This document shows positions 23,691 to 40,320 of a stretch of 42,520 nucleotides of DNA, one piece after another. Positions within the stretch are counted from its first letter, which is position 1. Each line of letters starts with the position of its first letter. The DNA comes from a bacterium (lineage in GTDB: Bacteria > JAHJDO01), in assembly GCA_030611945.1 (NCBI GenBank), contig JAUWOV010000003.1, positions 1 through 42,520 of the forward strand, given 5' to 3'. Made by a program: the position numbers and the translations under genes. The notes under the pieces were generated by a model. The model did no database searches, was not told the DNA's origin, and saw only the letters and a list, made by a program, of their open reading frames with translations.

Positions 23691-23970
23691 GTGTGCCCCT
23701 GGCGCGAGTGGCAGACTGTACTATATACTATCTACAAGGCAGGATTAGATAGTATTTAAACTTTTCGCAATAGCTTAACTGCTCAATGCCAACACGCCCA
23801 CCCTCCGCCCTTTTTTCTTAAATAACATTCCAAAGCCCCAAGGTCAATGGTAGATGTGGATCAAAAACAATTATTAAAATATCTATAAATCAGCTATAAC
23901 CTCTGCTTGTTTTTTCACTTTACGGAAAAAACAATCATTGAGTCAGATAAGGCTTGAGAGGTGATTAAAA

Positions 23971-24010
23971 ATGGGGCAATACTTTAAAATTCTTAATCTG
24001 GATAAAAAAA
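23971..24010 (+). pseudogene. N-terminal remnant of a phage-type protein (MGQYFKILNLDKK)
   Basis: GAGGTGA SD and an MGQY...NLDKK start; the frame then runs into the opposite-strand gene. Confidence 0.4.
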
Positions 24011-24012
24011 GT

Positions 24013-24297
24013 TTAAGTACTAGGCAAATTATGCTTTATTCTTTCTTCTTCTGCTATCACAATAATAGCTTCAAAAAGGATTCTCATACCATCTAATGAA
24101 ATATATGCTTTTGAATCAACGCCTTGTTTAGTTATCGCATTTACACATGATGTTACTAAATCGCGAAAGGCAGGTATTTCATCTGCTCTTCTCTTGAGAT
24201 CTTTTTTAGCCTTTCCCTTTTTTGCATACATAATTTCTTTAACACAAGCACTCAATTCTTCTGATGTGATTTGTTTTAAATACTCTAACAAGTTCAT
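24013..24297 (-). CDS. Hypothetical protein
   Basis: 94-aa ORF with GAGG SD. Confidence 0.6.
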   Translation of the reverse strand: MNLLEYLKQITSEELSACVKEIMYAKKGKAKKDLKRRADEIPAFRDLVTSCVNAITKQGVDSKAYISLDGMRILFEAIIVIAEEERIKHNLPST

Positions 24298-24420
24298 AAG
24301 AACCTCTTGGCAACAAATAGGGTTAACTCATCTATTGTGATTTTATCTCAATACATTATATTTGCAACAACAAAAAAGTCAGAAGGTGGACTAAAAGACA
24401 ATTCTTTTTTTATTAAATTA

Positions 24421-24454
24421 AGTAAATTTCTCTTTAAAATGCGAGAAATTTACT
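24421..24454. promoter_or_regulatory. 12-bp inverted repeat (operator-like) in a divergent intergenic region
   Basis: AGTAAATTTCTC-N10-GAGAAATTTACT. Confidence 0.5.
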
Positions 24455-24510
24455 CTTAGTGTCTAAAAGCAAAATAAGAGAATATCTTTATTGTATAAGG
24501 TGACTAAGTT

Positions 24511-24702
24511 ATGGGAATTATAAGAAATCGCGTAGAAGGGGCTTATAGAGGGTACATGAAGGATAAAAACCTGCCAAAGCTTTTAAGAAAATTGGTTGAT
24601 ATTGCTGACCATTTAGTTCATTACCAGCATCATAGAGACTGCCTGGATAGAGCAATGGACGAATTCTTTCCTATGAAAGAAAAACAACAAAGAGATGTTT
24701 AA
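24511..24702 (+). CDS. Hypothetical protein
   Basis: AGGTGA SD; 63 aa. Confidence 0.6.
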   Translation: MGIIRNRVEGAYRGYMKDKNLPKLLRKLVDIADHLVHYQHHRDCLDRAMDEFFPMKEKQQRDV

Positions 24703-24735
24703 AGAGCTTAAAAATAATCATTAGAGGTGGACATA

Positions 24736-25137
24736 ATGCCAGAAAACAGCTTAATCATAAACAAGGCATTCTTTGGCGGCAGGTCTGGCGCAAAGAATGT
24801 GCTGAAGATAACCCTGAATAAAAACAAAGAGTGTTATTTTAATTTCGGGATAGAGCAGCAAAACAGCAAATACCTGTGGATACCCTGTAAAATGAATGCT
24901 TCAGAGTTAGGAGATATAATAAACGTTTTGGCAGGAAAGATATCATCGATAGCCTTTTTCCATAAGTTTAATGGGAAAAAAGGAGAAACAACAAGGCAGA
25001 TATGGATTAACAGAAGCAATGATAATAAGGCTGTTTTTATAAAAATTAAGGAATTAACAAAGCCTCTAAGCCTGGGAGAGCAAAAGGTTCTCGAGCTTTT
25101 ACTTTCGCAGATTATAGTGAGGATGAGTTTATCTTAG
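24736..25137 (+). CDS. Hypothetical protein (possible Whirly/PC4-like fold)
   Basis: GAGGTGG SD, then ATG 24736; duplicated beta-sheet/helix pattern. Fold is inference. Confidence 0.7.
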   Translation: MPENSLIINKAFFGGRSGAKNVLKITLNKNKECYFNFGIEQQNSKYLWIPCKMNASELGDIINVLAGKISSIAFFHKFNGKKGETTRQIWINRSNDNKAVFIKIKELTKPLSLGEQKVLELLLSQIIVRMSLS

Positions 25138-25150
25138 TAAAAGAGGGAAA

Positions 25151-26209
25151 ATGGCAATAAAAACACCTGATTTAATTACACAGGCTAAAAGGTTTGATGA
25201 GAATACCCTAAGAAAGTTTCTGCAATTTCTTAACCATAAAATCCCATTCAAATATCAGGTATTTAAGCCAAACATTAATGGAAAACCACAGGGAAGCGGG
25301 AGATGTATATTTGTGGGGGATATAAACGAATTTATTAAGTTTTCAAAGCAGGACAATGGAACAGGCATGGTCTGCGTTGGAATAAATGAGTTAAGGAATA
25401 CCAATGATATTACCGGCATTACAAAATTACAGGCATTGGTGTTTGATATTGATGCAAATAAAAAAACAAAGTTTGTAAGCTCTATTAAAGACCATAATTA
25501 CGCTATAAGCCTGGCTAAAACCAGGGCAAGGGAAAGATTAGAAAGACTGGGATTTAAGGTTGGTTGCATAGTGGACTCTGGAAATGGAGCTCATATCTAT
25601 ATCAAGGTTAATATTCCGCTAAAAAGAGTGAAATCCAGAGAAGAATGGTTTAGTACAGATGTCTATAAAAAACTGGCTGTAATTGAAAAAAAGATGCAAA
25701 AGCTTAATGATGGCATAGTGCATATTGACTGTCTAACCAAAGACCCTGTAAGAAGGATGAAAGTGCCTGGAACATTAAACTATAAAGATACTCAAGAGGC
25801 AGAACACAGAATGTGCAGAATAGTCTGTCTTTTAGATGATCCTGCTGAAAAAGAAAATACAAAAGCATTTTACAGGATAAACCCAGCTGAATCAGACAGT
25901 ACTTTTGAAAATGCTGATGTGAAATCACTAACTAAAGAGCAAATTAGAAATATGTTTAGACAAGACAAGAAAATGAAGGACTTATATTTTGGGGACTGGC
26001 AGAAATATGGCTATAGGTCAAGATCAGAAGCAGAAATAGCTCTAATATCAAAAATGGTGCACTATCATTTTTCAAATAAAAACATTTACGAGCTTATGGA
26101 CAATTGCAAGATAGGCAAGTGGCAGGATGAAATAATAAGTAATAATTACAAAAGAAGAACAATAGCCAGTGCAAGGAATTTTATTAAAGCAGCAGAGTAT
26201 AACCAGTAA
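25151..26209 (+). CDS. AEP/RepB-like DNA primase with C-terminal helix bundle
   Basis: LVFDID, DSGNGAHIY, RRMKVPGTLNYK and SRSEAEIAL. Confidence 0.85.
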   Translation: MAIKTPDLITQAKRFDENTLRKFLQFLNHKIPFKYQVFKPNINGKPQGSGRCIFVGDINEFIKFSKQDNGTGMVCVGINELRNTNDITGITKLQALVFDIDANKKTKFVSSIKDHNYAISLAKTRARERLERLGFKVGCIVDSGNGAHIYIKVNIPLKRVKSREEWFSTDVYKKLAVIEKKMQKLNDGIVHIDCLTKDPVRRMKVPGTLNYKDTQEAEHRMCRIVCLLDDPAEKENTKAFYRINPAESDSTFENADVKSLTKEQIRNMFRQDKKMKDLYFGDWQKYGYRSRSEAEIALISKMVHYHFSNKNIYELMDNCKIGKWQDEIISNNYKRRTIASARNFIKAAEYNQ

Positions 26210-26368
26210 GGTTCAGGATAAGACTTCCACAAACATCTAATTCCCCCTTCCCTCTCCCCTAAAACAAAAAATGGATTCTTAAATTTTTTCTAATAATTGA
26301 GAAAAAATTCAGATAAAAAGGTCATTCATTGAATAAGATTATTCCAAGCAAAAGGAAAAGAGGTAAAA

Positions 26369-26623
26369 ATGGAAATAAAAAGAACAATAAGTTTAGGCTT
26401 GAGCAGGAAGGGAAAGTGCATAGTATGCAGCGACTTAAACACCTTGATTTTAGTAATGGGAACATCATCAATATCAGGAAACCTGCATTATTACGGAATT
26501 AAAAAAGAAAAAAACAGATGGATAGTGAGCATTGAAAAAATAAAGCAGAGAATAGCAGAGCTTGAGAACAGAAAAAATAAAATAGAACAAAAATTAGAGA
26601 TAATGAAACAGGTAGTTAAGTAA
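26369..26623 (+). CDS. Small protein with C-terminal coiled coil
   Basis: GAGGT SD; heptad-like tail. Confidence 0.65.
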   Translation: MEIKRTISLGLSRKGKCIVCSDLNTLILVMGTSSISGNLHYYGIKKEKNRWIVSIEKIKQRIAELENRKNKIEQKLEIMKQVVK

Positions 26624-26722
26624 AAAATGGACTGAAATCCCCTTTTTTCTGCATGTAAACCTTAAAGCATTCATACCCGATTCTATTACAAAAGTTTTCT
26701 TCTTTTCAATAAAAATTCAGAG

Positions 26723-27502
26723 GTGATTAAAATAGTAGGACCACTAACCAGAATGAGGCTGAAAGGTGAAAAGATACCATATAGAGGCAAAGAGTATCCT
26801 ATTAAGCATAAATACAACAAATTTAGATTTGTCTGCGATAAATGCGGCAGGTGCTGCTGTGATATTGATATTATGCTTAACCCTTATGACATTATAAGAA
26901 TCTGTAATAGGCTGAAGATTACTTCAGTCCGGTTTCTTAAAGATTATGCCAGTATAACATTAGGCGCGGATTCAAGGGTTCCTATTGTGCTTTTGAATAC
27001 AAGACCCCGCTGCGTATTTAACAAAAAGATATGCACCATATATGAAGACAGGCCGACAAATTGCAGAGGCTATCCTGTAGGCAGAATCACAATGACAGAT
27101 AAAGATACAGGAGAAGAGGAAGCGGGATATATAGTAAATGATAACTGCTCGGCAATACAGACGAAAAAAAGGCAGACAATAGAGGAATGGCTTAGAAAGG
27201 AAAAAGCAGATGAATATTTTAATATCTCAACAAGATGGAACAGATTTATTACAAAGCTTATCCAAAAAGGGTTTCCAAAAAATAATGAGATGTTTAATTT
27301 TCTCTTTATCAAGGCCTGCTATGATTTTGATAATAACCTATATAATAAGCTGATGGCTGCAAAAGGAATAAGCCAGTTCAAAACAGCAGAGGATAAGTTC
27401 AATTTCATTCTTGATAATGCAGAACCTCTTATACTGAATATAGCATCCAAAGTTAATTTTGACAAAGTAAGAGAAATGTTAGAGAAAAATAAAGACAAAT
27501 GA
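26723..27502 (+). CDS. YkgJ-family cysteine-cluster (CxxCxxCC) protein
   Basis: FVCDKCGRCC, LNPYDI.R and C.F...C.IYEDRP.NCR.YP. Confidence 0.9.
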   Translation: MIKIVGPLTRMRLKGEKIPYRGKEYPIKHKYNKFRFVCDKCGRCCCDIDIMLNPYDIIRICNRLKITSVRFLKDYASITLGADSRVPIVLLNTRPRCVFNKKICTIYEDRPTNCRGYPVGRITMTDKDTGEEEAGYIVNDNCSAIQTKKRQTIEEWLRKEKADEYFNISTRWNRFITKLIQKGFPKNNEMFNFLFIKACYDFDNNLYNKLMAAKGISQFKTAEDKFNFILDNAEPLILNIASKVNFDKVREMLEKNKDK

Positions 27503-27633
27503 AATGCGAAATCCCAAGGTGCAGAAATGAGGCAGACCTAATTTATTATGGACACGGGGTCTGTCAAAAGCATTATGATATGGATTGCGATGGTGCTATC
27601 TGCCTAAAAGAAAAGTTTGGAATAAAAAAATAG
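27499..27633 (+). CDS. 44-aa Zn-finger protein (not in ORF track)
   Basis: MKCEIPRCRN...VCQKH; ATGA overlap with the previous stop. Confidence 0.6.
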   Translation: MKCEIPRCRNEADLIYYGHGVCQKHYDMDCDGAICLKEKFGIKK

Positions 27634-27649
27634 GCTTGATGTGAATAAA

Positions 27650-27823
27650 ATGGAAGATATGGCAATTGAAAAAATAGTTGGCGATAAGGCAATCTTTACT
27701 CACAAATACTACAAAAAGCTATGCGAAGAAGCAAAGAAGAGAGGAATTACACCTGAAAAACTGTTCAATAAAATAGTGGCAGATTATTTAAGAAAGGTAA
27801 AGAATCAAAAAAGAGATGATTAA
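27650..27823 (+). CDS. Ribbon-helix-helix-like protein
   Basis: YKKLCEEAKKRGITPEKLFNKIVADYL. Confidence 0.6.
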   Translation: MEDMAIEKIVGDKAIFTHKYYKKLCEEAKKRGITPEKLFNKIVADYLRKVKNQKRDD

Positions 27824-27825
27824 AA

Positions 27826-27996
27826 ATGTTATTAATGCTTATTAATAAAGCGACTCACAGCAATAGCAAATGTTTCCTTTGTGGCAAAAGAATTCTTAAA
27901 GGACAAGAGGAGTATATTTGGGATTGTGGACGATATAAATCCCACAAAAAATGTGAAGAACAAAGAGAAAAAGAATTAGTTCAAAAGGTGACATAA
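27826..27996 (+). CDS. 56-aa PARP-type-like Zn finger (not in ORF track)
   Basis: ATHSNSKCFLCGKRILKG...HKKC. Confidence 0.5.
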   Translation: MLLMLINKATHSNSKCFLCGKRILKGQEEYIWDCGRYKSHKKCEEQREKELVQKVT

Positions 27997-28010
27997 AAGA
28001 TTTCTAATAA

Positions 28011-28308: not shown

Positions 28309-28330
28309 GTAGTAGAGGTGTAATATAACC

Positions 28331-29668: not shown

Positions 29669-30532
29669 GTGGTAAAACTGAAACAAGAACTAAATATGGC
29701 TGAGTTAAAAAATAAAGCTCTGAATTTTGATAAGGCAGAGACGAGAGATGTGCATGTTATTAAGGATGAAAACAACTATCTCTGCAAAAGGACAATGGCT
29801 GTATGGAACATTAGCAAGAATGTATTAGCGTGCCTTGCTCCAAAAAATTATGCAGTTATTCAGCATAAGCATGCAACAGAATCTATTATAGGAGCAATAA
29901 CCAGCCTAAATATCAAGGCAGCAGCAAAACTAAAAACATCAAAGCACGGCATACATATTGACTTTGATTTCCCGGAGTCTAAGTTTGAGTTAAAAACTGT
30001 GGGGGAATCATACACAACAGGTATACGCATTGTAAGCGATTATTCAAAAGTAGCTGGCCTTGTAATCAGCCCAAGGGTAACCAGACTGGCATGCTCAAAT
30101 GGAATGATAGTTACAGACATAGTGAAATCCCAGAGAATAAAATATACAGAACAGCTGACAATAACAGTAGAAGGTCTAATTGACAAGATGGTAAAGGATA
30201 TAATCACAAATGATGAGAAACTAGCCAATATGGTAAGTATTTGTATGGAAGACAGCACAGAATGGAACGCTGTAAAGTTATTGTTAAAAATGATGTTTAA
30301 AAAGAAGAAATATGCCAAAGAGATTTTTAATAACTTAGATATCAGTAAAAAAAGAGTTACCAGGTGGGATCTTTATAATGCAGTAACTAATTTTGCGACA
30401 CACGGGGAAAGATTAAAACCGCATATGGAAGCATGGCTGCAAAATAAGGCAAATGAGATAATGAAGACTTCTTTTAACGAGCTGTCGGAAATCAACAAGC
30501 CTGTGAAAAAGACTGTTGCTCAGACAGCCTGA
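29669..30532 (+). CDS. DUF932/DUF945-like protein
   Basis: Y.VIQH, RLACSNGM and TRWDLYNAVTNFATH. Confidence 0.8.
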   Translation: MVKLKQELNMAELKNKALNFDKAETRDVHVIKDENNYLCKRTMAVWNISKNVLACLAPKNYAVIQHKHATESIIGAITSLNIKAAAKLKTSKHGIHIDFDFPESKFELKTVGESYTTGIRIVSDYSKVAGLVISPRVTRLACSNGMIVTDIVKSQRIKYTEQLTITVEGLIDKMVKDIITNDEKLANMVSICMEDSTEWNAVKLLLKMMFKKKKYAKEIFNNLDISKKRVTRWDLYNAVTNFATHGERLKPHMEAWLQNKANEIMKTSFNELSEINKPVKKTVAQTA

Positions 30533-31666: not shown

Positions 31667-33535
31667 ATGGACAATATAGACAAGCAGATTGAAACGCTTA
31701 AAGTTCTAAACAAGGTAGACAATCTGAATTTAACTGATGAGCATTACGGCATATTAAAAGAAAAGGCAGTAAAATTCTACAATGATTACAAAGAGACTGG
31801 CGTGAACATAACAATTAATGTTTCACTGGATAATAAGCATGTATTCAGGATTTCCATATATGATAAAAAATCCATTTCAATAAGATATAACCGGCAACAA
31901 GAGGGATGCTCAGAAGAAATATATTCTATAAGGAATGTTGACTTGCTGTTTAAGCCAACACCCATGGAATTAAAGCATATTTCAAATCTTAGTTCTGATA
32001 TAACTTACCGGGATAAAAAAACATATAAAAATACAGTTCATTTTGTAAACAGCAGGCTAAAACATATAGTGGAATTAAGAGTAGACGAAAATCAAATCGA
32101 TTCTCTGTTCTGGCTGTTTAGAGAGGAAAAAGCAGATATAATAAAAATAGATGACGAAAGCAGATTGAATGTAATTACGCACGTGTTTGAAAAGAAGAAT
32201 AAGAGGTATTATCTTGCTAAAGACTATTCTTACTATAAAGTGCATGTAATAACCCCTGAAGATGAAAAATACAATTACATAGATAAAGGCAGGTTGTTTC
32301 ATCGTGACATTTTCTTTGAAGGCATGGAGCTTTACGAAATAGAGGATGATGTTCTAACTAAAATAATAAATGAAACCAATAATTTTGCAATTATAACCCC
32401 TCAAAGATACAGTACATATAAAGCAATGGTTGAAGAGGAGAAAAGGCAGAAGGAAATAAACGAGCATTATGTTGATGCCATAAAAAACCGATTAGACCAG
32501 GGGTTTGAACAGGATGGAATAAAGTTTAGAAAACACTCAATAGAGTATGCCGGATTAAGGATTGAAAGCGAAGCTCTGGATATAGAGGAATTAGTAAACA
32601 GCATAAACTTTGACCAGAATCTTGACTTTAATAATATCTTCAATCAAGTATGTTCAATAATAACTGATAGATTATTCCCCGACAAATATAAAAACATGGT
32701 TATTCACCTTGGCTCTTTTCCTGTAAGGCTGGATGTTGAAACAAAAAGAAACGGGAAATCAGTTCAAAGACTAATCAATAATGCTGAACAAAAACAGGTT
32801 AAAACAACAATAACCAATAAATATCTTGTTGACAACATAAGAATAAACAAGTCAGAGATAAAGGAAGTCATCAGGAGAGCGATCTGCTTCAGAAAAAGGT
32901 ATGATTATGATGTTTTTCTTAAGTCAGTCAGCACTATGTCTATAAAGCTGCATTACTTTCTCGCCAATGGTGTAAAGATATCTTACACTAAAAATGATAA
33001 ACTTTTAACAATGAAATTGAATCTTGTTAGAAGAGACAATAAAAATTATGTTGCTGTAAAAGATAAATTCCACAAGGTTAAGAACAGCAACCAGCTGTTT
33101 GCAGCAAGTTGTGATCCATTATATTCAAGAGGCTACAGGAATCATAACTTCCAGGCTCTTGTAAAAATGCTTATAGATTTTTTTGAAATCAAGGCAGATG
33201 ATGTCATAACCATGATGGAAGAGAGCTTAAAGGCCTACAAAGAGGCAGAAGAAAGGGCAAAGAAATTGCTAAATGAAACTATGAAGAAACTGGATATCAA
33301 AGAGGTTACAATTAAAGATAAAGAAGGATTTAAAATAAAGGGGAAATCCGGCAAAGAGTATTTTGTGGAGAGAAAAACAAATGGTGTTTACGAGCTTCCT
33401 GCCATGAAATATATCTGTATCGTGGAAACCAGCATGGACAACAATTTCAAGTCAGATAAGCTGGTAACATATTTCTATGCTTTAAAAAATGATTCCTATC
33501 TGGCAAGCGATATCTACACTCTGAATGTCAATTAA
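31667..33535 (+). CDS. 622-aa hypothetical protein with a C-terminal Cys-containing domain
   Basis: Long ORF with GAGG SD; C-terminus IKGKSGKEY.V...VY....YICIV...DKLV....ALKND. Confidence 0.85.
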   Translation: MDNIDKQIETLKVLNKVDNLNLTDEHYGILKEKAVKFYNDYKETGVNITINVSLDNKHVFRISIYDKKSISIRYNRQQEGCSEEIYSIRNVDLLFKPTPMELKHISNLSSDITYRDKKTYKNTVHFVNSRLKHIVELRVDENQIDSLFWLFREEKADIIKIDDESRLNVITHVFEKKNKRYYLAKDYSYYKVHVITPEDEKYNYIDKGRLFHRDIFFEGMELYEIEDDVLTKIINETNNFAIITPQRYSTYKAMVEEEKRQKEINEHYVDAIKNRLDQGFEQDGIKFRKHSIEYAGLRIESEALDIEELVNSINFDQNLDFNNIFNQVCSIITDRLFPDKYKNMVIHLGSFPVRLDVETKRNGKSVQRLINNAEQKQVKTTITNKYLVDNIRINKSEIKEVIRRAICFRKRYDYDVFLKSVSTMSIKLHYFLANGVKISYTKNDKLLTMKLNLVRRDNKNYVAVKDKFHKVKNSNQLFAASCDPLYSRGYRNHNFQALVKMLIDFFEIKADDVITMMEESLKAYKEAEERAKKLLNETMKKLDIKEVTIKDKEGFKIKGKSGKEYFVERKTNGVYELPAMKYICIVETSMDNNFKSDKLVTYFYALKNDSYLASDIYTLNVN

Positions 33536-33593: not shown

Positions 33594-33806
33594 ATGGTAA
33601 AATTTAGAATTTTAGATGACAAAGGCGATACTGTGTTGGAACTGCAACCAGAGGAAACAATGGAAAAGATGAGGCAGGAGGCAGAAAGAGGCAGATGGCT
33701 CTATCTTAACGGCGAGGTTGTGAATATAGACCACGTTACTATGGAAGACATTAATAAAGCAAATGAAATAGTTTCAACACCAATGCTGAAAGGGGGTTCT
33801 TTATAG
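33594..33806 (+). CDS. Ubiquitin-like (ThiS/SAMP-type) protein ending GG-SL
   Basis: 70 aa; WLYLNGE.V...I..TPMLKGG is a ThiS/MoaD-like pattern; GAGGTG SD before ATG 33594. Confidence 0.8.
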   Translation: MVKFRILDDKGDTVLELQPEETMEKMRQEAERGRWLYLNGEVVNIDHVTMEDINKANEIVSTPMLKGGSL

Positions 33807-33819
33807 AACCCTTTTAAAA

Positions 33820-34185
33820 ATGATAAATATCCTGAAAGAGATAGAAAGGATTTCAGAAACAAGCGATAAGGAAGTGTGCGGAATAGTAACAGAGGAAGAC
33901 GGCAGAGCAAAGGTAACAGAGTTGAAGAATGTTTCAGACAACGAAGAGATTTGCTTTATAGCTGACCAAAGGCAGTTTTTTGATGCAATAAAAAAAACCT
34001 CTTTTTATGATAAAAGCAGGAGAAGCAATATAGTGTGTTTTTTCCATTCTCATATTCATAAGAATGAAACGCCTTCCGCAACTGACATGAAATACAGGTT
34101 GAAAAATATTCTTCATATCATATACAGCCTGACAACAAAAAGATTCTTTTTGCTGTATCCAGAAGGTGGTAGAAATGCTGAATAA
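33820..34185 (+). CDS. JAB/MPN+ metallopeptidase
   Basis: EVCG...FHSH-x7-S-x2-D. Confidence 0.9.
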   Translation: MINILKEIERISETSDKEVCGIVTEEDGRAKVTELKNVSDNEEICFIADQRQFFDAIKKTSFYDKSRRSNIVCFFHSHIHKNETPSATDMKYRLKNILHIIYSLTTKRFFLLYPEGGRNAE

Positions 34186-34423
34186 TTCAGTTACAACCAA
34201 AATCAAGGACAAAGGCAATGATGCTTCTAATATTTCCATTTATTTAAACAATAATGCAGCTTATCCTAACATTGAGATAGAGATTGAAAGGAGAAAGGTA
34301 TTTGAAACACTCGCTAATAAAGATTTAATTGTTGCTTCCTTAAACAAAAAATTAACTGAAATGATTCAGATGTATTTGGAAGCTCAGGCAAAAAAAGAAA
34401 AAGAGGTGCGGGAAAATGTATAA
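34175..34423 (+). CDS. Small hypothetical protein in the Ubl cassette
   Basis: Overlaps both JAB and E1 genes; AGGTGG SD. Confidence 0.7.
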   Translation: MLNNSVTTKIKDKGNDASNISIYLNNNAAYPNIEIEIERRKVFETLANKDLIVASLNKKLTEMIQMYLEAQAKKEKEVRENV

Positions 34424-35015
34424 GAAAATTCTGATTTTAGGAGCAGGAGGCATTGGCTCTATGTTTAGTTCAAGGATATATGATTTAGTTATTAAAAGAC
34501 AGATAAACATTAATGACAGCGAGTTTTTTATTGCTGATAATGATAATGTAAAGCTGGAGAATATACAAAATAACCAGAAATTTGACAAAGAGGATTTGAT
34601 GATGAATAAGGCAGAAGCAATAGCGAAAAAGCACGGCTTTGTTGCTATAAAAAAGAAAATAGAAACAGAGGAAGAGTTAAAAGATTATGATGTCTTTGTA
34701 ATCTGCGTTGATAATAAAAAGGCAAGAGAGCTTATTTTCAATTACTGCAATAAAAATCCTGATAAATATTTTATTGATCTGCGTGCTGAAGGCAGGGGAG
34801 TAGCTGCATTTACAACATGCAAAGAAAACACTATAGAAAAATTATTAAAAACATTGCCGGATGATGATGAAAGCGGCTCTTGCCAAAGAAAGGCTGATAA
34901 AGAGCAAGGCATTTTCCAGTTAGGCAGCGTTATTATTGCAGAGATAGGCGCTCAACTCTTGCTTAATAATTTAAGAGAAGAAATAAACCCGCCAAAATTT
35001 ATCCAGATGTTTTAA
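34416..35015 (+). CDS. Minimal ThiF/E1-like adenylyltransferase
   Basis: ILGAGGIGS, DNDNV..ENI..Q.F, NKA, CVDN..AR, IDLR and GSCQ; no CxxC pairs. Confidence 0.9.
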   Translation: MYKKILILGAGGIGSMFSSRIYDLVIKRQININDSEFFIADNDNVKLENIQNNQKFDKEDLMMNKAEAIAKKHGFVAIKKKIETEEELKDYDVFVICVDNKKARELIFNYCNKNPDKYFIDLRAEGRGVAAFTTCKENTIEKLLKTLPDDDESGSCQRKADKEQGIFQLGSVIIAEIGAQLLLNNLREEINPPKFIQMF

Positions 35016-35411: not shown

Positions 35412-36510
35412 TTACCTACTACAATATCGGTCTTTTTTAAAACGAATTTCTTTGATTAATTTTTCTAATTCTTTATTTCTATTGTTGATATTACGCATAT
35501 CTAAAGCTTTTCTATCTTTTAAACGTAAAGGAAGTATTTTTTTCATATTTCCTTCAATAACAATAGGAATTATTCTATCTTTATCTTTAGAAGATAAATT
35601 TGAAAGAGCTTGTTCAACTTCTTGTCTTACCCAATCTGACTTTCTTATATTATTTGAAACAATAACTAAAGTTAACAGACTATTTTTAATAGCTTTTATA
35701 ATTGAGGATTCTAGTATTTCACCCAAATGAAGGTCATTAACATCCAACCAACAATCAATTCCTGCTTTTAAAAGACCATCTCTCATCCAAGTTGCTATGT
35801 AATTATCTTTTGATGAATGACTTATAAATACATCATATTTATATTTAGACGAAAATAAATTGTTTTGCTTTGAATTAAAAAGTACAATCTCACTATTTCC
35901 ATAGTCATTGTCTTTAAATGATCTATTAAAAATAACTTCTGCAATTCTTAAATCTGCTTTATTATTTTTAAACTCATTAACAGCTTCATAACCCTTAAAT
36001 CCACAAATTTGGTCATTATCAGTTTTTAACTCAAAAGAAATTTCTTCTTTTTCATATTTTATTTGAAAAACATAGAAATAATATGTAATTCCTTTAACAA
36101 TGTTTTTTACAACACCTATAAAATTAATTGATGAGGGTTTTTATACCGCATTTAACTTCATCGTAATAATATTGTAGAATATCTTCGAAATTGTGAGGGT
36201 AAATTTTTCTATTTGGCACATAAAATGGCGAAAGAGATTGTAATATACTAAACCCTTTTGTAATTAAATGTGTATCCTTTCTTTCAATTAGAAGAACATC
36301 ATTATTTTTATTAGTTATAACAAAGCTAAATTGAATAATGTCTAGATTTCTTTTTTCTTTATCGCTTAATCTCTTACAATCTGTTGACTTAAATAGTTGA
36401 GATAGTGAAATAATTTTTTCTCTTTCGAAAAATTGAGCTATCTTTTTAGAAAATAATCGATTGTTGATTTTATGAATATATCTTTTGGGATCTGCTATTG
36501 ATTTTCTCAT
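35412..36510 (-). pseudogene. NUDIX-like + TIR fusion with a 1-bp frameshift (365 aa when repaired)
   Basis: Removing one A from ATAAAAACCC (about 36136-36145) joins 36124..36510 to an open frame reading ...YDVFISHSSKD...WLD...SDWVRQE. Confidence 0.8.
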
Positions 36511-37013
36511 AGTTCTACTTCTTTTATATATAAAAGACCAACACTAATTATTGTATACTCACTTCCATTTTAATATTACCACCATACCTCAAATTGCTTA
36601 AAACCTCAACAAAAATAGACACAAAAAGCCAATCAGATGAAACCCCTTTGGTTTCAAGCTTCCCGCAATTAGGACAAGATGCCAAAACTCCTTCACTCTG
36701 TTCACTGGCAGGCTTTTGTAAACGTTTGTATAACTTATATAGTTGCAAAATCTGAGCAGTTCACGAGTTCAGCAAGTTTTGCTCGAGGGGGCGCGAACAG
36801 GGAACTCTTCCTTTATAAAATTTCCCCCTTTTCCTATTATTTAGAGTTATTTATAACGGAAAAGGGTCGGGGACGATACCCCTAAAACTTTATAAATCCA
36901 GCCTCCCCCGTTCCTCCCCGCTCTGAGTCTTGTCTATACTTCTATTCTCAGCCACTTCACAAGAATGAGAAGTGGCTTTCAACAATTAGATTGAGAGGCG
37001 CGAGGTAAATAAA

Positions 37014-37706
37014 ATGATAGGTAGAATGGAATGGACAGATTGGGATAAATTGGAAACATCAGAAGATAGGATGCAGCAGGATGAGCTGGAAAATAACTTA
37101 GAAACATTTGACAGGGATGAGCTTCCTGTAAGCCCTACAATAAAGGTTATAAAAAAATACTCTGAGGATTCAACACTTCCAGACTTAAGTCCGGAGGAAT
37201 TGCTTGACTGGCAGGAAATGGCATATCAGTTGTTTAAAAAGGATTATGAGGCAGTAGCTGATTTGGGCAGGATAAAAACAAAGGCAAGGTTAATAGTAAA
37301 AAGTCTCAAAATAGAAGAAACAGAATACATTGATTCACACAATGAAAAAAGGACAAAATTCAGATACATCGGCGACATTAAGTATAAAATTTACACAGTA
37401 AAGCAGGAGCAAAAAGCGCCGGATTACAGAAACTTTGAAAAAATAAATGGAGTCGAGGTTGATATATCAGCATTCAATACAATTGATTTCAAAAGGCAGA
37501 TGCAGATGCCAAGATTCAACAAATTCGGCTACAAGATAGGAAAGCTAAAAGAAAAGCTACTGGACGCAGTAATAGCATACTCTGTCTTTGTTGAAAGCAG
37601 CACGCCAAATCCAGAAAGCATAGAAAGAGCCAAGCAGAAGCTTTTAGCAATATATGATATCTGTAGAGAGGCAATACAAGACTATTATAGAAAATCTCCT
37701 TTCTGA
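37014..37706 (+). CDS. Hypothetical protein
   Basis: 230 aa; GAGGT SD. Confidence 0.8.
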   Translation: MIGRMEWTDWDKLETSEDRMQQDELENNLETFDRDELPVSPTIKVIKKYSEDSTLPDLSPEELLDWQEMAYQLFKKDYEAVADLGRIKTKARLIVKSLKIEETEYIDSHNEKRTKFRYIGDIKYKIYTVKQEQKAPDYRNFEKINGVEVDISAFNTIDFKRQMQMPRFNKFGYKIGKLKEKLLDAVIAYSVFVESSTPNPESIERAKQKLLAIYDICREAIQDYYRKSPF

Positions 37707-37788
37707 TTTTTTATTATAAAAAACTTCTTCAACATAGATGTATCAGAAGTTTTCCACACTTAGATGGATTACTTCAGAGGATATAAAA

Positions 37789-38097
37789 ATGACAGATGGA
37801 AACAAGCCAATAAAGAAGTTTAGAGCAGCAGGTGTATTAAGCGTTGCAGTATGGGAAAATACAGGAACCAGCAAGAGAACAGGAGAACCAGTGAAATTCC
37901 ACACAATATCAACAGATAGAAGATACAAAAACAAAGATGGAGAATGGAAATCAACAGGAACATTAAGGATAAACGATATACCAAAGATGGTTTTATTGTT
38001 GCAGAAAGCCTATGAATACTTTGTTTTGAAAGACACTAATAATGGAAATGGCAACAGCGAAACTATACCAGTTAATGAGGAAGAAATAGTTGTGTAA
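37789..38097 (+). CDS. PC4/SSB-like ssDNA-binding protein with acidic tail
   Basis: KP.KKFRA.....VWEN...RRYK.KDGEWKST..LR.ND.PK...LQKAYEY; tail NEEEIVV. Confidence 0.7.
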   Translation: MTDGNKPIKKFRAAGVLSVAVWENTGTSKRTGEPVKFHTISTDRRYKNKDGEWKSTGTLRINDIPKMVLLLQKAYEYFVLKDTNNGNGNSETIPVNEEEIVV

Positions 38098-38157
38098 GCT
38101 ATTTCTTTTTTTATTTTTTTGCTTTCTCTGAATCCCAATATAATAACTAATATTGAG

Positions 38158-38418
38158 GTGGTAAAAATCAATACAAACACACCAATAAAACAGGCAAATG
38201 AAGAAACAAATAAGGTTTATTGCAGGAAATGCGGAATAGAAATAGAGCTGGATATAACAAATCCCTATGATATATGTAATGGATGCTGGGAAGAAAAAAT
38301 AACCAGACCAGTAATAGAAGCAATTGAAGAGGTGGAGAAAAAGTTTAATGTGCAAATATGGGCTGAATGGGTTAATAATAAAGATAAGGAGCCTAAAAAA
38401 GTGCATAAAAATTATTAA
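38158..38418 (+). CDS. Zn-ribbon protein
   Basis: CRKCG...ICNGC; start uncertain (GTG 38158 or ATC 38167). Confidence 0.65.
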   Translation: MVKINTNTPIKQANEETNKVYCRKCGIEIELDITNPYDICNGCWEEKITRPVIEAIEEVEKKFNVQIWAEWVNNKDKEPKKVHKNY

Positions 38419-38542
38419 GAATCAATAATATCTTAAAAACTAATTAAGCCCATTAGTGTTTCTCAGGTGTTTGAATGGGCTTTAGAAGTAAAAATAGAAT
38501 CAATAAAAATCAATCTAAAATAATTTAGACAGGTGATTCAAA

Positions 38543-38857
38543 ATGTGGAAGGCATTTAACACAAAAAAAGGCAGATGGGTTGAGGGATGGATAAACTATC
38601 ATATCAGGGTTGACGCCTATATGTTTGACAAGGTAATGGTTGATAAATGGGGAAATAAAATTAAAAGGGCTTTTCCATTTGAGGAAATATCTTATAGAGT
38701 AAAAACAGGAAAGCAGTTTGTATGGCTTAACAAAGAGCAGGTTAATGATATTGTAAAGGCAGTCAATGAGCTTGAGCAGTCAGTAAAATCAAGAATGACA
38801 GAAAAAGAGGAAATTGAACTTGCAGTCAGAGAAGCGCAGAAAGGCAAGATAAGATAA
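38543..38857 (+). CDS. Hypothetical protein
   Basis: AGGTGA SD; 104 aa. Confidence 0.75.
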   Translation: MWKAFNTKKGRWVEGWINYHIRVDAYMFDKVMVDKWGNKIKRAFPFEEISYRVKTGKQFVWLNKEQVNDIVKAVNELEQSVKSRMTEKEEIELAVREAQKGKIR

Positions 38858-38895
38858 AAATTCCATATTTATGTTGTATAAAGAGGTGGTGTTAA

Positions 38896-39057
38896 ATGCT
38901 AAGAGAACTAAAAAAGGTGAAACTAAAAGGCAAATTATACTATTCGGATGCAAGACTCAAAGAATTGAGAAATATTAATAATCCAAATGACAGAATAGAG
39001 TTAAATGACTTTGAAGTTTATTTTTTTGAGAATATCTATAAAGGAGAAGATTTGTAG
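38896..39057 (+). CDS. 53-aa hypothetical protein (not in ORF track)
   Basis: MLRELKKVKLKGKLYYSDARLKELRNINNPNDRI; GAGGTGG SD. Confidence 0.65.
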   Translation: MLRELKKVKLKGKLYYSDARLKELRNINNPNDRIELNDFEVYFFENIYKGEDL

Positions 39058-39325
39058 GAACTATAAATTGGAATAACAAATAATACTATATTTATAACGT
39101 TTATATTGTGCTGTTACACAGCTAAAGGTTTAAAAGGCGCTTGCTCATCGCAAGCTAACCATTTAAACCTTTCCCCTTTCAGGGTCGCTTACAGCAGAGC
39201 TATAAAAAAGAAGTCCATCTAGTTCTAGCTAATTCCAATGTTTCTTTTTCTAAAATTGCAAAAGAAATCTTGTCTATCAAGGGATAAAACATAAGGCAAA
39301 AGACAGGATTTCAGAGGTTCAAAAA

Positions 39326-39697
39326 ATGATTAAAGACTTAAAAAGCTTTAGATATACTGATAGAGAAAGACTGGAAATAAATGAAGAAAATGAAATAGAT
39401 AAAGAAGATGAGGTAAGAGAAGCAGAAGAAATAATCGGTCAGATTGCTTATGATGAGCGCAAAAAAAGGAAACAGATTATTGATGCTGAAGAAGGAGACT
39501 GGTTCAGGCCAATGCCTAAAAAGTTAGACTATGGTCATGGTATAAAAGTAATACCACATCTGCCATGGATGAGGTATCAATATACATGCCAGAAGTGCAA
39601 GTGCCATGTGGTCTCAACGCCGGGCATAAGTGATGCCATAGAAGGCTGGGAACTGGTTGTATGTAGAAATTGCGGGTACGCGTGGAAAGTGCCATAG
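39326..39697 (+). CDS. Protein with C-terminal Zn ribbon
   Basis: CQKC...CRNCG. Confidence 0.75.
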   Translation: MIKDLKSFRYTDRERLEINEENEIDKEDEVREAEEIIGQIAYDERKKRKQIIDAEEGDWFRPMPKKLDYGHGIKVIPHLPWMRYQYTCQKCKCHVVSTPGISDAIEGWELVVCRNCGYAWKVP

Positions 39698-39970
39698 CAA
39701 TAGCAGATAAAGCGATAGCAGGCAGGTAGATAAATAGAGAGCATAATAGAGCATATAAGAATCTTAGATGCATATAGCAGGATACTAAGCAGGATAGAAT
39801 AGTGAGAGGAAATAACTAAGCGTATAAAGCATAAAGCAGGCCAATGCTGACAGTTTATAGCTTGTAGTTTTTATTTAACAAATAAAATTGAGGATAAAAC
39901 AAAATTGATGGTGGAGATATTAATAAATAATATAATAGTGATAGTAATAATAATATAAAAAATTAATTAT

Positions 39971-39994
39971 AAAAAGGGCTGTTAATCACAGCCC
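39971..39994 (-). terminator. Intrinsic terminator-like hairpin
   Basis: Minus strand GGGCTGT-GATTA-ACAGCCC-TTTTT. Confidence 0.5.
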
Positions 39995-40320
39995 GCCTGC
40001 TTCGCAGCCGGGCTGAAGGTGCTGGTAAAGGTAAGTGTGTAGAAAATAGGTGAGTAAAGGGAGTGAAGTTTTCGGTTTACGGGTTTAATATATAAACTGG
40101 AACGGTAAATCGAAAGCGAAATAACGATAAATAAACGTATTTGATTATAGTGTGTAAGTTAAGATAATATAAGGAGTTAGATTTGATTCGGAAGGGATAA
40201 TAAGTAAAATGAAATCCCCGAATTAAATCAATTATCCACACTACCTTAAAAAGGCAAAAATGTGGTAGGAAATCTAAAAATATACAAATTGGGCTATTTC
40301 TAAAAAAGGGGGATAATGGA

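What the first reader, a model, noticed from the sequence alone, without database searches (positions are those of the whole stretch)
23750..40020. Archaeal-looking mobile DNA inside a bacterial contig
Seen: BRE-TATA-like boxes (23753-23767 minus, 28292-28308 at -30..-23 from the ATG, 36884-36896); mostly GGTG(A/G)-centred SDs; and hairpin-less oligo-T tracts right after stops (30532, 31242, 33535, 37706, 38097). From recall, the SSB-like, wHTH-Fic and 24736 proteins resemble Woesearchaeota/DPANN proteins. The left part is clearly bacterial (sigma54, guaB3, miaB). Inference: cross-domain acquisition, or an assembly chimera. Caveats: the DNA is AT-rich, and GAGGTGA SDs also occur in the left block.
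Basis: partly seen in the sequence, partly recalled or inferred. Interest (0 to 1): 0.78.

Follow-up and report, generated by a model that had tools for sequence, protein, structure and literature searches.

The report
Archaeal mobile-element genes inside a bacterial island
A 16-kb block of plasmid-like genes whose nearest relatives are in tiny-genome (DPANN-type) archaea sits, properly assembled, inside a genomic island of an uncultured cold-seep bacterium, so it looks like mobile DNA that crossed from archaea into bacteria.

Summary
The window is a whole 42.5-kb contig of a bacterial MAG. Its left end (guaB3-like, miaB-like) is host chromosome: it is 78-90% identical and syntenic in four same-genus genomes. 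Everything from 4344 onward is an insertion relative to those genomes.

The flagged block (about 23.75-40.3 kb) is not a chimera:
- depth is even (22 vs 23x), and an independent 17.5-kb contig spans 23369-40919;
- a host-genus repeat lies at 36.5 kb and a host high-copy IS at 40.9 kb;
- proteins on one 39,858-bp sister contig link guaB3 with both halves of the island.

Three genes point to archaea:
- the "SSB-like" protein matches 253 of 301 genomes of one small-genome archaeal phylum (next to radA in 5 of 5 loci examined), against 1 of 300 other bacteria;
- the 24736 protein (Whirly/PC4-like fold) matches 26 of 301 against 1 of 300;
- the Fic family's organism-named hits are 12 of 14 archaeal.

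The primase's only two close relatives among species-representative genomes are in archaeal MAGs. One of them shares a five-gene module with the window.

Post-stop oligo-T tracts and GAGGTG ribosome-binding sites are enriched against the host. TATA-like boxes are not above chance.

The 622-aa, DUF932 and ubiquitin-like cassette genes are uninformative about domain.

Verdict: cross-domain acquisition supported, chimera rejected.

The parts
1995..4344 (.). Host chromosome flank: GuaB3-like IMPDH-related gene (1995-3155, +) and MiaB-like gene (3238-about 4344/4413, -)
   Evidence: Pfam. 88-90% and 78-82% nt identity, adjacent, in same-genus genomes G004, G006, G007, G008. GuaB3 cluster members are named '[bacterium]'.
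4344..23700 (.). Left half of the inserted island: large serine recombinase (4323-6011), ThiF-E1 + Prok-E2_E, RDD, HerA-like, DUF669, radical SAM, sigma54 activator, NACHT, HEAT
   Evidence: Pfam and PADLOC. This stretch is missing between miaB and the cyclophilin gene in G006/G007. SD and terminator statistics are host-like.
23658..23684 (+). GC-stem terminator-like hairpin after the HEAT gene; left edge of the archaeal-like block (first GAGGTG at 23958)
24736..25137 (+).
   Evidence: AF2 pLDDT 83.8 with beta4-alpha x2 topology. Foldseek: Whirly/PBF-2/MRP, E 2e-4, TM 0.63-0.65. Family found in 26/301 archaeal vs 1/300 bacterial genomes. Chromosomal contexts in the archaea.
25151..26209 (+). 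Archaeo-eukaryotic-type primase (prim-pol) with PriCT-like C-terminal domain
   Evidence: phrog_1829. DxD (D99, D101) and SGNGxH (143-148) are conserved. C-terminus matches phage primases. The only 2 close relatives in species-representative genomes are both in archaeal MAGs.
26723..27502 (+). CxxCxxCC (YkgJ-like) metal-cluster protein
   Evidence: Pfam PF03692, 39 bits
28331..29566 (+). wHTH-Fic protein, cargo gene of DPANN-archaeal affinity
   Evidence: Pfam Fic; PADLOC PDC-S04/SoFic. 556 relatives, of which 12 of the 14 organism-named are archaeal. Tree. Atlas. None of 80 relatives' loci shares another island gene. No close copy on the sister contig.
29669..30532 (+). DUF932 protein
   Evidence: Pfam 26 bits; phrog_1362. 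A copy at 90% identity or more lies on the sister contig. No match in the plasmid collection.
30553..31242 (+). Short N6-methylase-like protein (SAM-binding part only)
   Evidence: Pfam N6_Mtase profile positions 10-102 of 311; phrog_5696
31667..33535 (+). 622-aa core protein of unknown family; the C-terminal domain (526-615) is possibly a UBC/UEV/RWD (E2-like) fold with invariant Cys584
   Evidence: AF2 pLDDT 83.8. VIA-align Z 5.5-4.6 to Vps23 UEV, BubCD, Cap2 and E2S: weak. Invariant C584. 370 clusters in the representative library. Homolog in G061:C12.
33594..33806 (+). 70-aa candidate ubiquitin-like protein ending KGGSL (ThiS/MoaD-like by eye)
   Evidence: Translation; SD GAGGTG at 33581. 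No Pfam hit even at E<=1. The role is inferred from position, size and the C-terminal GG.
33820..34185 (+). JAB/JAMM metallopeptidase with intact motif (E18, H76-x-H78, S86-x-x-D89)
   Evidence: Pfam Prok-JAB; weak NCBIfam desampylase match; motif read from the translation
34416..35015 (+). Minimal ThiF/E1-like adenylyltransferase (GxGxxG at 9-14)
   Evidence: Pfam ThiF. PRTRC_ThiF scores only 38 bits against a cut-off of 144.75. 39% identical homolog in G061:C12.
35412..36510 (-). TIR-domain gene broken by a frameshift near 36124 (N-terminal ORF 36124-36510, TIR part 35412-about 36120)
   Evidence: Pfam TIR_2; three-frame translation
36537..36615 (-). About 75-nt upstream repeat specific to the host genus, directly 5' of the TIR gene
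   Evidence: Matches in all 8 same-genus genomes and none at these positions in the 52 other bacteria. 11 further copies in G000. The copies lie 15-30 nt upstream of SD+ATG of unrelated genes.
37014..37706 (+). 230-aa protein of unknown function
   Evidence: No family match
37738..38097 (+). 'SSB-like' 119-aa protein, member of a near-core family of a small-genome archaeal phylum
   Evidence: 253/301 archaeal genomes (40-57% identity) vs 1/300 other bacteria. Next to radA in 5/5 archaeal loci examined. No Pfam or PDB sequence match. The ssDNA-binding role is not tested.
38119..39697 (+). Three small ORFs (38119-38418, 38543-38857, 39326-39697), two with Cys-pair zinc-ribbon-like motifs
   Evidence: Translations. 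38543-38857 has a copy at 90% identity or more on the sister contig.
39700..40000 (.). Non-coding stretch with 3 ATAGCAG repeats in 80 nt, then an AT-rich tract and a GC hairpin; possible origin-like region (speculative)
   Evidence: (12 ATAGCAG in the window vs 6.6 +/- 2.7 expected)
40891..42397 (-). IS481-family insertion sequence of the host's high-copy family; right edge of what is assembled
   Evidence: NCBIfam transpos_IS481. Its termini match the ends of more than 20 other G000 contigs at 87-90%. Depth 81-573x against 23x for the block.

Best explanation
Window 23.75-40.3 kb is the replication/maintenance part of a plasmid- or ICE-derived mobile element that evolved in DPANN-type archaea. 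It now lies inside a composite genomic island of at least 38 kb. That island is inserted between miaB and a cyclophilin gene in the chromosome of an uncultured cold-seep bacterium.

Shown:
(1) the contig is bacterial chromosome at its left end, and the island is an insertion relative to same-genus genomes;
(2) the block is physically contiguous with the bacterial DNA;
(3) two of its genes belong to families that are native chromosomal genes of an archaeal phylum and are nearly missing from the bacteria sampled; a third (Fic) belongs to an archaeal-dominated family; its primase and four other genes recur together on an archaeal contig that also carries VirB4 and a T4SS pilin;
(4) its genes carry their own expression signals (GAGGTG SDs, oligo-T/A-T palindromes straight after stops) that differ from the host's.

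Inferred:
- The element replicated with an AEP prim-pol plus Whirly/PC4-like and 'SSB-like' nucleic-acid-binding proteins taken from archaeal hosts.
- It carries a ubiquitin-like conjugation cassette (E2-like C-terminus of the 622-aa protein, Ubl ending GG, JAB peptidase, minimal E1).
- It entered the bacterial lineage as one block and was not built gene by gene.
- It has no integrase of its own and is carried passively. It may move with the large serine recombinase at 4.3-6.0 kb.
- Since arrival it has gained a host-type cassette (TIR gene behind a host-genus upstream repeat) and a host IS at its edge.
- Open reading frames that stay intact in two copies diverged by 6-14% at the protein level suggest that the genes are still kept.
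For: Host flank. guaB3/miaB are 78-90% identical and adjacent in G004, G006, G007 and G008. In those genomes miaB abuts the homolog of G000:C88:~4244 (cyclophilin), with gaps of 64 bp, 43 bp and about 2.2 kb. G000's rRNA operon is bacterial.

Contiguity. The one run holding the DNA gives depth 22.1 left of and 23.2 across the block, and a 17,551-bp independent contig covering 23369-40919.

Host marks. The genus-specific repeat at 36537-36615 matches in 8/8 same-genus genomes and has no match at these positions in 52 other bacteria; G000 holds 11 more copies. The IS termini match more than 20 G000 contig ends.

Sister contig of 39,858 bp. It holds GuaB3, the radical-SAM protein, DUF932 and the 38543 protein in the same 90% clusters, plus w24736 at 94%, the 622-aa protein at 92% and the primase at 86%.

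Archaeal affinity.
- SSB-like: 253/301 vs 1/300, beside radA in 5/5 loci, 52-56% identical to six archaeal chromosomal copies vs 39% to the one bacterial hit.
- w24736 family: 26/301 vs 1/300, in housekeeping contexts with GC from 22 to 60%.
- Fic: 12/14 named hits archaeal, and nested in that family.
- Primase: 2 of 2 species-representative loci are archaeal MAGs, and both MAGs carry archaeal SSU rRNA.
- Five-gene module on G061:C12, a contig with PGF-pre-PGF, DUF835, an MMR_HSR1+TGS GTPase, VirB4 and a T4SS pilin.

Signals. T5 after stops in 6/16 ORFs vs 6.2% of host ORFs. GAGGTG is 3.5x enriched and GGAGG 3x depleted. The G061 element part is also GAGGTG-rich against its own flank (0.34 vs 0.05/kb).
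Against: - No integrase, att repeats or T4SS genes were found in the block or T4SS genes elsewhere in G000, so 'element' rests on gene content alone.
- The 622-aa family is in 0/300 other genomes of the archaeal phylum and 0/300 bacteria. The DUF932, methylase-like, JAB, ThiF, CxxCxxCC and small ORFs have no demonstrated domain affinity. DUF932, ThiF-JAB and TIR are common on bacterial mobile elements (recalled).
- Fic is missing from the sister contig and has no synteny with the module, so at least one archaeal-type gene came separately.
- The atlas places the SSB-like protein nearest to clusters labelled Planctomycetota/Uroviricota (0.91-0.93).
- The archaeal partner element carries a bacterial-type xseA (45% identical to G000's own), so the family trades genes with bacteria.
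- The w24736 and SSB-like trees are unresolved at depth.
- TATA boxes are at chance level.
- GAGGTG density exceeds that of every archaeal comparator, so it is an element signature, not proof of archaeal origin.
- The right-hand chromosomal junction is not assembled.
- The sister contig could not be read; it is identified only by one shared contig length.
Confidence: 0.68

Rival explanations
1. A bacterial mobile element or defence island that picked up a few archaeal genes one at a time. The block is natively bacterial or promiscuous. Only Fic, the SSB-like gene and the Whirly-like gene are separate inter-domain transfers, and the module on the archaeal contig reflects transfer from bacteria into an archaeon.
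For: Fic is absent from the sister contig and unlinked to the module. The 622-aa family shows no preference (0/300 vs 0/300). DUF932, ThiF/JAB, TIR and methylase-like genes match phage families or PADLOC models. The archaeal contig's VirB4 scores best against bacterial ICE families and the contig carries a bacterial-type xseA. Atlas neighbours of the SSB-like protein are partly bacterial or viral.
Against: One uniform set of signals (13 strand-specific GAGGTG sites, post-stop T tracts) runs through the whole block, differs from the left half of the island and from the host, and is shared in kind by the archaeal element. The replication gene's only close relatives are in archaeal MAGs. Two different archaeal chromosomal families occur in one 14-kb block. 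DUF932 has no match in 72,556 plasmids and the primase none either.
Confidence: 0.22
2. Assembly chimera or mis-binned contig: archaeal DNA wrongly joined to bacterial DNA through the repeat-rich HEAT gene at 22.4-23.4 kb.
For: The independent assembly graph is broken into short pieces over 22.4-23.37 kb. No single independent contig spans from the sigma54/NACHT genes into the block, and one piece there has depth 13.8. Only one run, probably the source, holds the DNA.
Against: Depth is 22.1 vs 23.2 on the two sides. The 17.5-kb contig starts inside the HEAT ORF (23369) and runs in frame into the block. A genus-specific repeat and a host IS lie inside or at the far edge of the block. A diverged second assembly apparently carries guaB3, a left-block gene and five right-block genes on one contig.
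Confidence: 0.04
3. Reverse direction: the genes are bacterial or phage in origin and spread into the archaeal phylum.
For: Single bacterial hits exist for both families (G536, G456). The trees are unrooted and poorly resolved.
Against: The SSB-like family is present in 84% of the sampled archaeal genomes, in a conserved radA/RPA neighbourhood. The Whirly-like family follows host GC from 22 to 60%. Both patterns indicate old, vertically kept archaeal genes. None of the 8 same-genus bacteria has either family.
Confidence: 0.04

Closest known systems
Integrated archaeal plasmids / conjugative elements with AEP prim-pol replication proteins (recalled: pRN/pNOB8-type and other archaeal integrated elements); here concretely the VirB4-pilin-primase region on archaeal contig G061:C12
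   Same: AEP-type primase with a PriCT-like C-terminus as the replication gene. Five shared genes (primase, Whirly-like, SSB-like, 622-aa, ThiF). GAGGTG-rich signals in both.
   Different: The window copy lies in a bacterial chromosome. It has no T4SS genes, no integrase and no att repeats. Gene order differs, and identities are only 24-39%.
Bacterial genomic/defence islands at a chromosomal hot spot, carried by large serine recombinases
   Same: Inserted between conserved genes, with the site empty in relatives. Holds a recombinase, IS elements, TIR, NACHT, Fic and E1-E2 genes.
   Different: Half of the island is a block with archaeal-type core genes and non-host expression signals.
Prokaryotic ubiquitin-like conjugation operons: Bil / Bub, CBASS Cap2-Cap3, PRTRC cassettes, archaeal SAMP-UbaA-JAMM (names recalled; PDB entries 9eav, 7to3, 8tyz seen)
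   Same: Adjacent genes for a minimal E1 (ThiF), a JAMM peptidase with an intact motif, a 70-aa protein ending GG plus two residues, and a protein whose C-terminal domain weakly resembles the UBC/UEV fold and has an invariant Cys.
   Different: The E2-like domain is fused to about 520 aa of unknown fold. There is no sequence match to any E2, Ubl or PRTRC model above cut-off, and no PADLOC hit for the cassette apart from weak E1 matches.
PC4-like / Whirly / PUR / MRP nucleic-acid-binding fold (review PMC7549692: listing and start of the abstract seen)
   Same: The w24736 model has the beta4-alpha-linker-beta4-alpha topology and matches Whirly structures.
   Different: No sequence similarity to Pfam families. 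Nucleic-acid binding is not tested.

Membership tests
Mobile DNA of archaeal (DPANN-type) origin | Genes whose families are native to archaeal genomes and rare in bacteria | tested here: met
   SSB-like 253/301 vs 1/300. w24736 family 26/301 vs 1/300. Fic: 12/14 named hits archaeal. Archaeal contexts beside radA, aaRS, Hef, NOG1 and L10e.
Mobile DNA of archaeal (DPANN-type) origin | Replication module shared with elements in archaeal genomes | tested here: met
   Primase: 2/2 loci in archaeal MAGs. Five-gene module on G061:C12. Archaeal SSU in both MAGs. n is small.
Mobile DNA of archaeal (DPANN-type) origin | Archaeal promoter elements (BRE/TATA) in excess | tested here: not met
   TTTAWATA 15 vs 17.75 +/- 4.4 expected.
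Mobile DNA of archaeal (DPANN-type) origin | Oligo-T termination signals after genes, unlike the host | tested here: met
   6/16 vs 6.2% of 1407 host ORFs; G061 element 7/29; DPANN-like Fic loci 70/416. Whether they terminate transcription is not tested.
Self-transmissible or integrative element (ICE, integrated plasmid, provirus) | Own integrase and flanking att repeats | tested here: not met
   No recombinase domain in 23.7-40.9 kb. No convincing flanking direct repeats. The nearest recombinase is at 4323-6011.
Self-transmissible or integrative element (ICE, integrated plasmid, provirus) | Conjugation (T4SS) or virion genes | tested here: not met
   None in the window. tblastn of the G061:C12 ORFs, VirB4 and pilin among them, gave no such match in G000. 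No relatives of w24736 or the 622-aa protein in viral contigs.
PRTRC (ParB-related, ThiF-related) cassette | PRTRC-type ThiF above the NCBIfam cut-off plus PRTRC proteins A-F and ParB | tested here: not met
   TIGR03736 scores 38 bits vs a cut-off of 144.75; no other PRTRC model matched.
Ubiquitin-like conjugation system (E1-E2-Ubl-DUB) | E1 adenylating enzyme and JAMM deubiquitinase-type peptidase | tested here: met
   ThiF 49.9 bits, Prok-JAB 35.6 bits. JAMM motif intact (translation).
Ubiquitin-like conjugation system (E1-E2-Ubl-DUB) | Beta-grasp Ubl with C-terminal Gly-Gly | tested here: inconclusive
   70-aa ORF ending KGGSL. No Pfam hit at E<=1. Its fold was not predicted.
Ubiquitin-like conjugation system (E1-E2-Ubl-DUB) | E2 with catalytic Cys in a UBC fold | tested here: inconclusive
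   C-terminal domain matches UEV/UBC/RWD chains at Z 3.5-5.5 only. Invariant C584. No sequence-level link.
Assembly chimera | Coverage break or lack of bridging sequence at the junction | tested here: not met
   Depth 22.1 vs 23.2; an independent contig covers 23369-40919. The repeat-rich 22.4-23.4 kb stretch itself is fragmented, and only contigs, not raw reads, were available.

The most novel reading that the evidence does not exclude
A lineage of DPANN-archaeal plasmid/ICE-type replicons crosses the domain boundary and is kept intact, and possibly expressed, in a bacterial chromosome. It brings archaeal core DNA-metabolism genes (the radA-linked 'SSB-like' protein, a Whirly/PC4-like protein), an AEP primase and a previously undescribed four-part ubiquitin-like conjugation cassette with a fused E2-like protein. 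Such a transfer would imply close physical contact between this cold-seep bacterium and small-genome archaea.
Probability: 0.3. Interest if true: 0.8.

Novelty: new variant of a known kind. Interest (0 to 1): 0.62.

Why it matters
Gene flow between the domains is mostly documented as single metabolic genes, and for DPANN archaea mostly as import from bacteria (recalled). Here a 16-kb, multi-gene, mobile-element-type block with archaeal core replication/recombination genes and non-host expression signals lies in a bacterial chromosome, apparently in two diverged bacterial copies.

If confirmed, it is a concrete case in which to ask three things: how archaeal mobile DNA enters and is expressed in bacteria, whether archaeal-style oligo-T signals work there, and which organisms touch each other in cold-seep sediments.

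It also flags two uncharacterised archaeal protein families (one next to radA in most genomes of a phylum) and a candidate new ubiquitin-like cassette for biochemical study.

Tried and rejected
- Rfam on the whole window at E<=0.1: no match. tRNA scan: none.
- Flanking att-type direct repeats: none convincing among 60 repeat families.
- Plasmid collection: no match for the primase or DUF932. Phage collection: only the PriCT-like C-terminus of the primase matches phage primases; the SSB-like protein has no match.
- Viral contigs: only distant primase relatives at 23-39% identity, without synteny. None for w24736 or the 622-aa protein.
- The first genome-contig scan with 15 primase sequences was rejected as too divergent. 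It was repeated with the 5 closest.
- Names for 622-aa relatives: none of the 10 clusters looked up carries a name.
- 622-aa protein: Foldseek against PDB gave nothing. PDB sequence profile gave nothing. hhalign to the left-block Prok-E2_E gave nothing.
- SSB-like vs the w24736 profile: no relation. SSB-like vs PDB sequences: nothing. The label 'SSB' is therefore untested.
- Sigma70-like promoter scan: 83 vs 73.7 +/- 8.4, uninformative.
- Earlier scan notes on look-alike stretches: none.
- Complex prediction for E1 + Ubl: the queue was full at six attempts and no job ran, so binding is untested.
- Runs X2 and X3 of the same study hold next to none of the block.
- Literature: three full-text searches. 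Only listings and abstract starts were read; none of the listed titles describes this element or an archaeal-to-bacterial mobile block of this kind. No paper was read in full, and no supplements were opened.

Full report
**What the window is.** The window is the whole contig C15 of a 1.66-Mb, 119-contig MAG. The MAG's rRNA operon is bacterial: SSU and LSU bacterial models win their clans. The one public run that holds the DNA is a cold-seep metagenome and is probably the source.

Gene content by Pfam, PHROGs, NCBIfam and PADLOC, left to right:
- an IS (512-1870);
- a GuaB3-like gene and a MiaB-like gene;
- a large serine recombinase (4323-6011);
- a ThiF-E1 / Prok-E2_E pair, RDD, a HerA-like ATPase, DUF669, a radical-SAM protein, a sigma54 activator, and NACHT and HEAT proteins;
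- the flagged block;
- an IS481-family element (40891-42397).

**Host context and the chimera question.**
- guaB3 and miaB are 88-90% and 78-82% identical at the DNA level and adjacent in four of the five same-genus genomes searched.
- In those genomes the 5' end of miaB abuts the homolog of G000 contig C88 near position 4244 (a cyclophilin gene following MacB, Dus, SpoU and DUF5661). The gaps are 64 bp (G006), 43 bp (G007) and about 2.2 kb (G004, G008).
- So everything from window 4344 to the contig end, plus C88:4300-16088 (IS200-like, AbiEi, a TOTE-type AEP-helicase, a tyrosine integrase), fills a variable site that is empty in relatives.
- Laying the independent Logan contigs of the run on 22001-42000 gives depth 22.1 left of the junction and 23.2 across it. 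One 17,551-bp contig covers 23369-40919. It starts inside the HEAT ORF. Only the internally repetitive HEAT gene (22.4-23.4 kb) is fragmented.
- Depth rises to 81-573x over the IS. The IS termini match the ends of more than 20 other G000 contigs at 87-90%. It is therefore the host's own high-copy IS and the reason the contig ends there.
- A roughly 75-nt sequence at 36537-36615 recurs in all 8 same-genus genomes and has no counterpart at these positions in the 52 other bacteria searched. It has 11 more copies in G000, always 15-30 nt upstream of an SD and ATG of unrelated genes. It lies inside the block.
- Protein look-ups place seven proteins on a contig (or contigs) of one length, 39,858 bp, from other assemblies. 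GuaB3, the radical-SAM protein (16685-17482), DUF932 and the 38543 protein fall in the window's own 90%-identity clusters. The other three are the 24736 protein (94%), the 622-aa protein (92%) and the primase (86%). I could not read that contig, so 'one contig' is inferred from the shared length.
- Together these results make a chimera very unlikely.

- TATA-like octamers are at chance level (15 vs 17.75 +/- 4.4).
- The SD claim holds. Thirteen GAGGTG sites lie on the + strand between 23958 and 38883 and none on the - strand. Density in the block is 0.70/kb against 0.20/kb in the host, while GGAGG is three-fold depleted. The left half of the island is host-like.
- The terminator claim holds in part. 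T5 within 25 nt of the stop occurs in 6 of 16 ORFs, against 6.2% of 1407 host ORFs (p about 3e-4), 0 of 19 in the left half and 1 of 60 on low-GC host contigs.
- Five of the tracts are T...A palindromes, that is A/T-only hairpins. GC-stem terminators are not enriched.
- Comparators: 7 of 29 in the related archaeal element and 70 of 416 in the DPANN-like Fic loci.
- GAGGTG is denser in the block than in any archaeal comparator. It is also enriched in the archaeal element against its own flank (0.34 vs 0.05/kb). These are therefore element signatures that fit, but do not prove, archaeal ancestry.
- Tetranucleotide composition is atypical (95-98th percentile) from about 16 kb onward, not from 23.7 kb.

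**Domain affinity, gene by gene.**

*Fic (28331-29566).*
- 556 relatives. Of the 14 hits among the best 120 that carry an organism name, 12 are archaeal (Woese-, Pace-, Nano-, Aenigm-archaeota, Methanofastidiosia, 'archaeon') and 2 bacterial.
- The atlas gives Iainarchaeota/Nanobdellota clusters at 0.98 against bacterial ones at 0.90-0.91.
- In a 61-row tree the window lies in a 23-row clade (SH-aLRT 100) whose only named member is a Woesearchaeota MAG.
- In 80 metagenome loci of relatives no other island gene is nearby. The closest relatives sit in a conserved methyltransferase-Fic-MGMT-AP endonuclease-aaRS context.
- No close copy exists elsewhere: the best hit is 67% identical. Fic is therefore a separate cargo gene.

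*Primase (25151-26209).*
- Only 16 relatives in 5.8 billion proteins. AEP motifs are conserved.
- A pattern scan of 185,579 species-representative genomes found two loci, both in archaeal MAGs: a 5.8-kb contig of a Methanosarcinales MAG (46%) and an 81-kb contig of 'MAG: archaeon' (39%). Both MAGs carry archaeal SSU rRNA.

*The 81-kb contig (G061:C12).*
- It holds five homologs within 10 kb: primase, 24736 protein (38%), SSB-like (35%), 622-aa protein (24%) and ThiF (39%).
- Next to them lie a VirB4-like ATPase and a T4SS pilin.
- The contig also carries a PGF-pre-PGF surface protein, DUF835, an MMR_HSR1+TGS GTPase and a RaSEA-like protein. By recalled knowledge of these families these are archaeal features.

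*24736 protein.*
- A profile of the family matches 26 of 301 genomes sampled from G061's phylum (genome sizes 0.5-2.3 Mb), against 1 of 300 other bacteria and 0 of 8 same-genus genomes (Fisher p 5e-7, overstated because kin are not independent).
- In 20 archaeal loci it stands alone, with GC from 22 to 60%. Its neighbours are aaRS, Hef-like, Lhr and Ski2-like helicases, DNA glycosylases, L10e and NOG1.
- Its model (pLDDT 83.8) has the PC4-like/Whirly double beta4-alpha fold.

*SSB-like protein (37738-38097).*
- It matches 253 of 301 genomes of the same phylum at 40-57% identity. Without the two genomes flagged unpublished, G305 and G306, the count is 251 of 299. Only 1 of 300 other bacteria matches, at 38%.
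- In 5 of 5 archaeal loci inspected it lies next to radA, with RPA-like and YdjM genes nearby in three.
- The atlas, by contrast, lists Planctomycetota/Uroviricota-labelled clusters, so the family is not exclusively archaeal.

*622-aa family.* 370 clusters, none of the ten looked up carries a name. It is in neither sample beyond G061 and G000.

*DUF932, the methylase-like protein, CxxCxxCC, JAB, ThiF and the small ORFs* were not placed.

**What it probably does.**
- Replication core: an AEP prim-pol plus two small nucleic-acid-binding-type proteins.
- A non-coding stretch at 39.7-40.0 kb, with three ATAGCAG repeats, an AT-rich tract and a hairpin, could be an origin. This is speculative.
- Genes 31667-35015 look like a ubiquitin-like conjugation cassette. 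It comprises a minimal E1 (ThiF, GxGxxG), a JAMM peptidase with an intact motif, and a 70-aa ORF ending KGGSL. The fourth part is the 622-aa protein. Its C-terminal 90 residues resemble UEV/UBC/RWD folds only weakly (Z 5.5-3.5; BubCD, Cap2 and E2S are among the rows), and it carries an invariant Cys584. No sequence-level support exists, and the complex prediction could not be run.
- No integrase, att site, T4SS gene or virion gene lies in the block. It is therefore best read as a captured, non-autonomous part of an element, carried within an island whose only recombinase is the serine recombinase next to miaB.
- After arrival it took in a host-type cassette: a TIR gene, now frameshifted near 36124, behind the genus repeat. 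It also has a host IS at its edge.

**Verdict.** The flagged block is real, correctly assembled and bacterial-resident. It carries a coherent set of genes and signals best explained by descent from a mobile element of small-genome archaea.

The main open alternative is that a promiscuous or bacterial element collected archaeal genes piecemeal. Fic certainly came separately, and half of the genes are uninformative.

Inter-domain transfer as such is known. A multi-gene, element-type, archaea-to-bacteria block with retained non-host signals is unusual. Three full-text searches listed nothing describing it (listings only).

Noticed in passing
window 36537-36615; also G000 C7:4522-4594, C105:13423-13493, C19, C40, C20, C56, C48, C41, C68, C96, C28: A roughly 75-nt conserved sequence (about 75-90% identity between copies). 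It is found in all 8 same-genus genomes, always 15-30 nt upstream of the SD+ATG of unrelated genes. It is a candidate genus-specific promoter/5'-leader or cis-regulatory RNA. Rfam has no match.
   Followed up: partly
window 3167-3239 (between guaB3 and miaB): A second, different roughly 73-nt repeat with dozens of copies per genome in the genus (38 matches in G004, 24 in G007) and 9 other copies in G000. It resembles a REP/MITE-like intergenic element.
   Followed up: partly
window 6710-11945 (- strand): A second, unrelated ubiquitin-like system in the left half of the island: a 490-aa ThiF E1 (PADLOC E1-E2 models), Prok-E2_E, a 75-aa ORF, an RDD membrane protein and three unknown ORFs. They sit next to a HerA-like ATPase and DUF669.
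   Followed up: no
window 18543-23635: A sigma54 activator whose AAA+/HTH part matches PADLOC RtcR_PspF2 (356 bits) but whose N-terminal roughly 270 aa are unknown. It is divergently paired with NACHT and 13-repeat HEAT proteins. This looks like a regulated NLR-type defence module.
   Followed up: no
window 35412-36510 (-): The TIR-domain gene is split by a frameshift near 36124. The 128-aa N-terminal ORF and the TIR part read through in adjacent frames.
   Followed up: partly
window 4323-4413: The 3' end of the serine recombinase ORF overlaps the annotated 5' end of miaB. Homology with relatives' miaB stops at 4341-4344, so the island begins within about 20 nt of the miaB start.
   Followed up: partly
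G061:C12 (L052-L056), about 5-40 kb: An archaeal MAG contig carries a putative integrated conjugative element. It holds a 1601-aa PGF-pre-PGF/DUF835 protein, a T4SS pilin, a VirB4-like ATPase, an AEP primase, PIN, HIRAN, MEDS, SNF2-methylase and a bacterial-type xseA (45% identical to G000's own).
   Followed up: partly
L191, L192, L194, L195, L196 (archaeal genomes): An uncharacterised roughly 100-aa protein family is present in 84% of the sampled genomes of a small-genome archaeal phylum. It lies directly beside radA, often with RPA-like and YdjM genes. This is a candidate recombination/replication accessory protein.
   Followed up: partly
G000:C88 (L069) 4300-16088: The other side of the same variable site holds an IS200-like gene, AbiEi, DUF6155, a TOTE-type AEP-helicase (316 bits), a PilZ-kinase, and a tyrosine integrase followed by response-regulator genes.
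   Followed up: no
window 26284, 29628, 31244, 33538, 37707: A recurring intergenic motif of T6-7, CT, a 6-12 nt loop, AG, A6-7 (two copies are 90% identical over 29 nt) lies directly after stop codons. It could be a bidirectional terminator or a protein-binding site of the element.
   Followed up: partly
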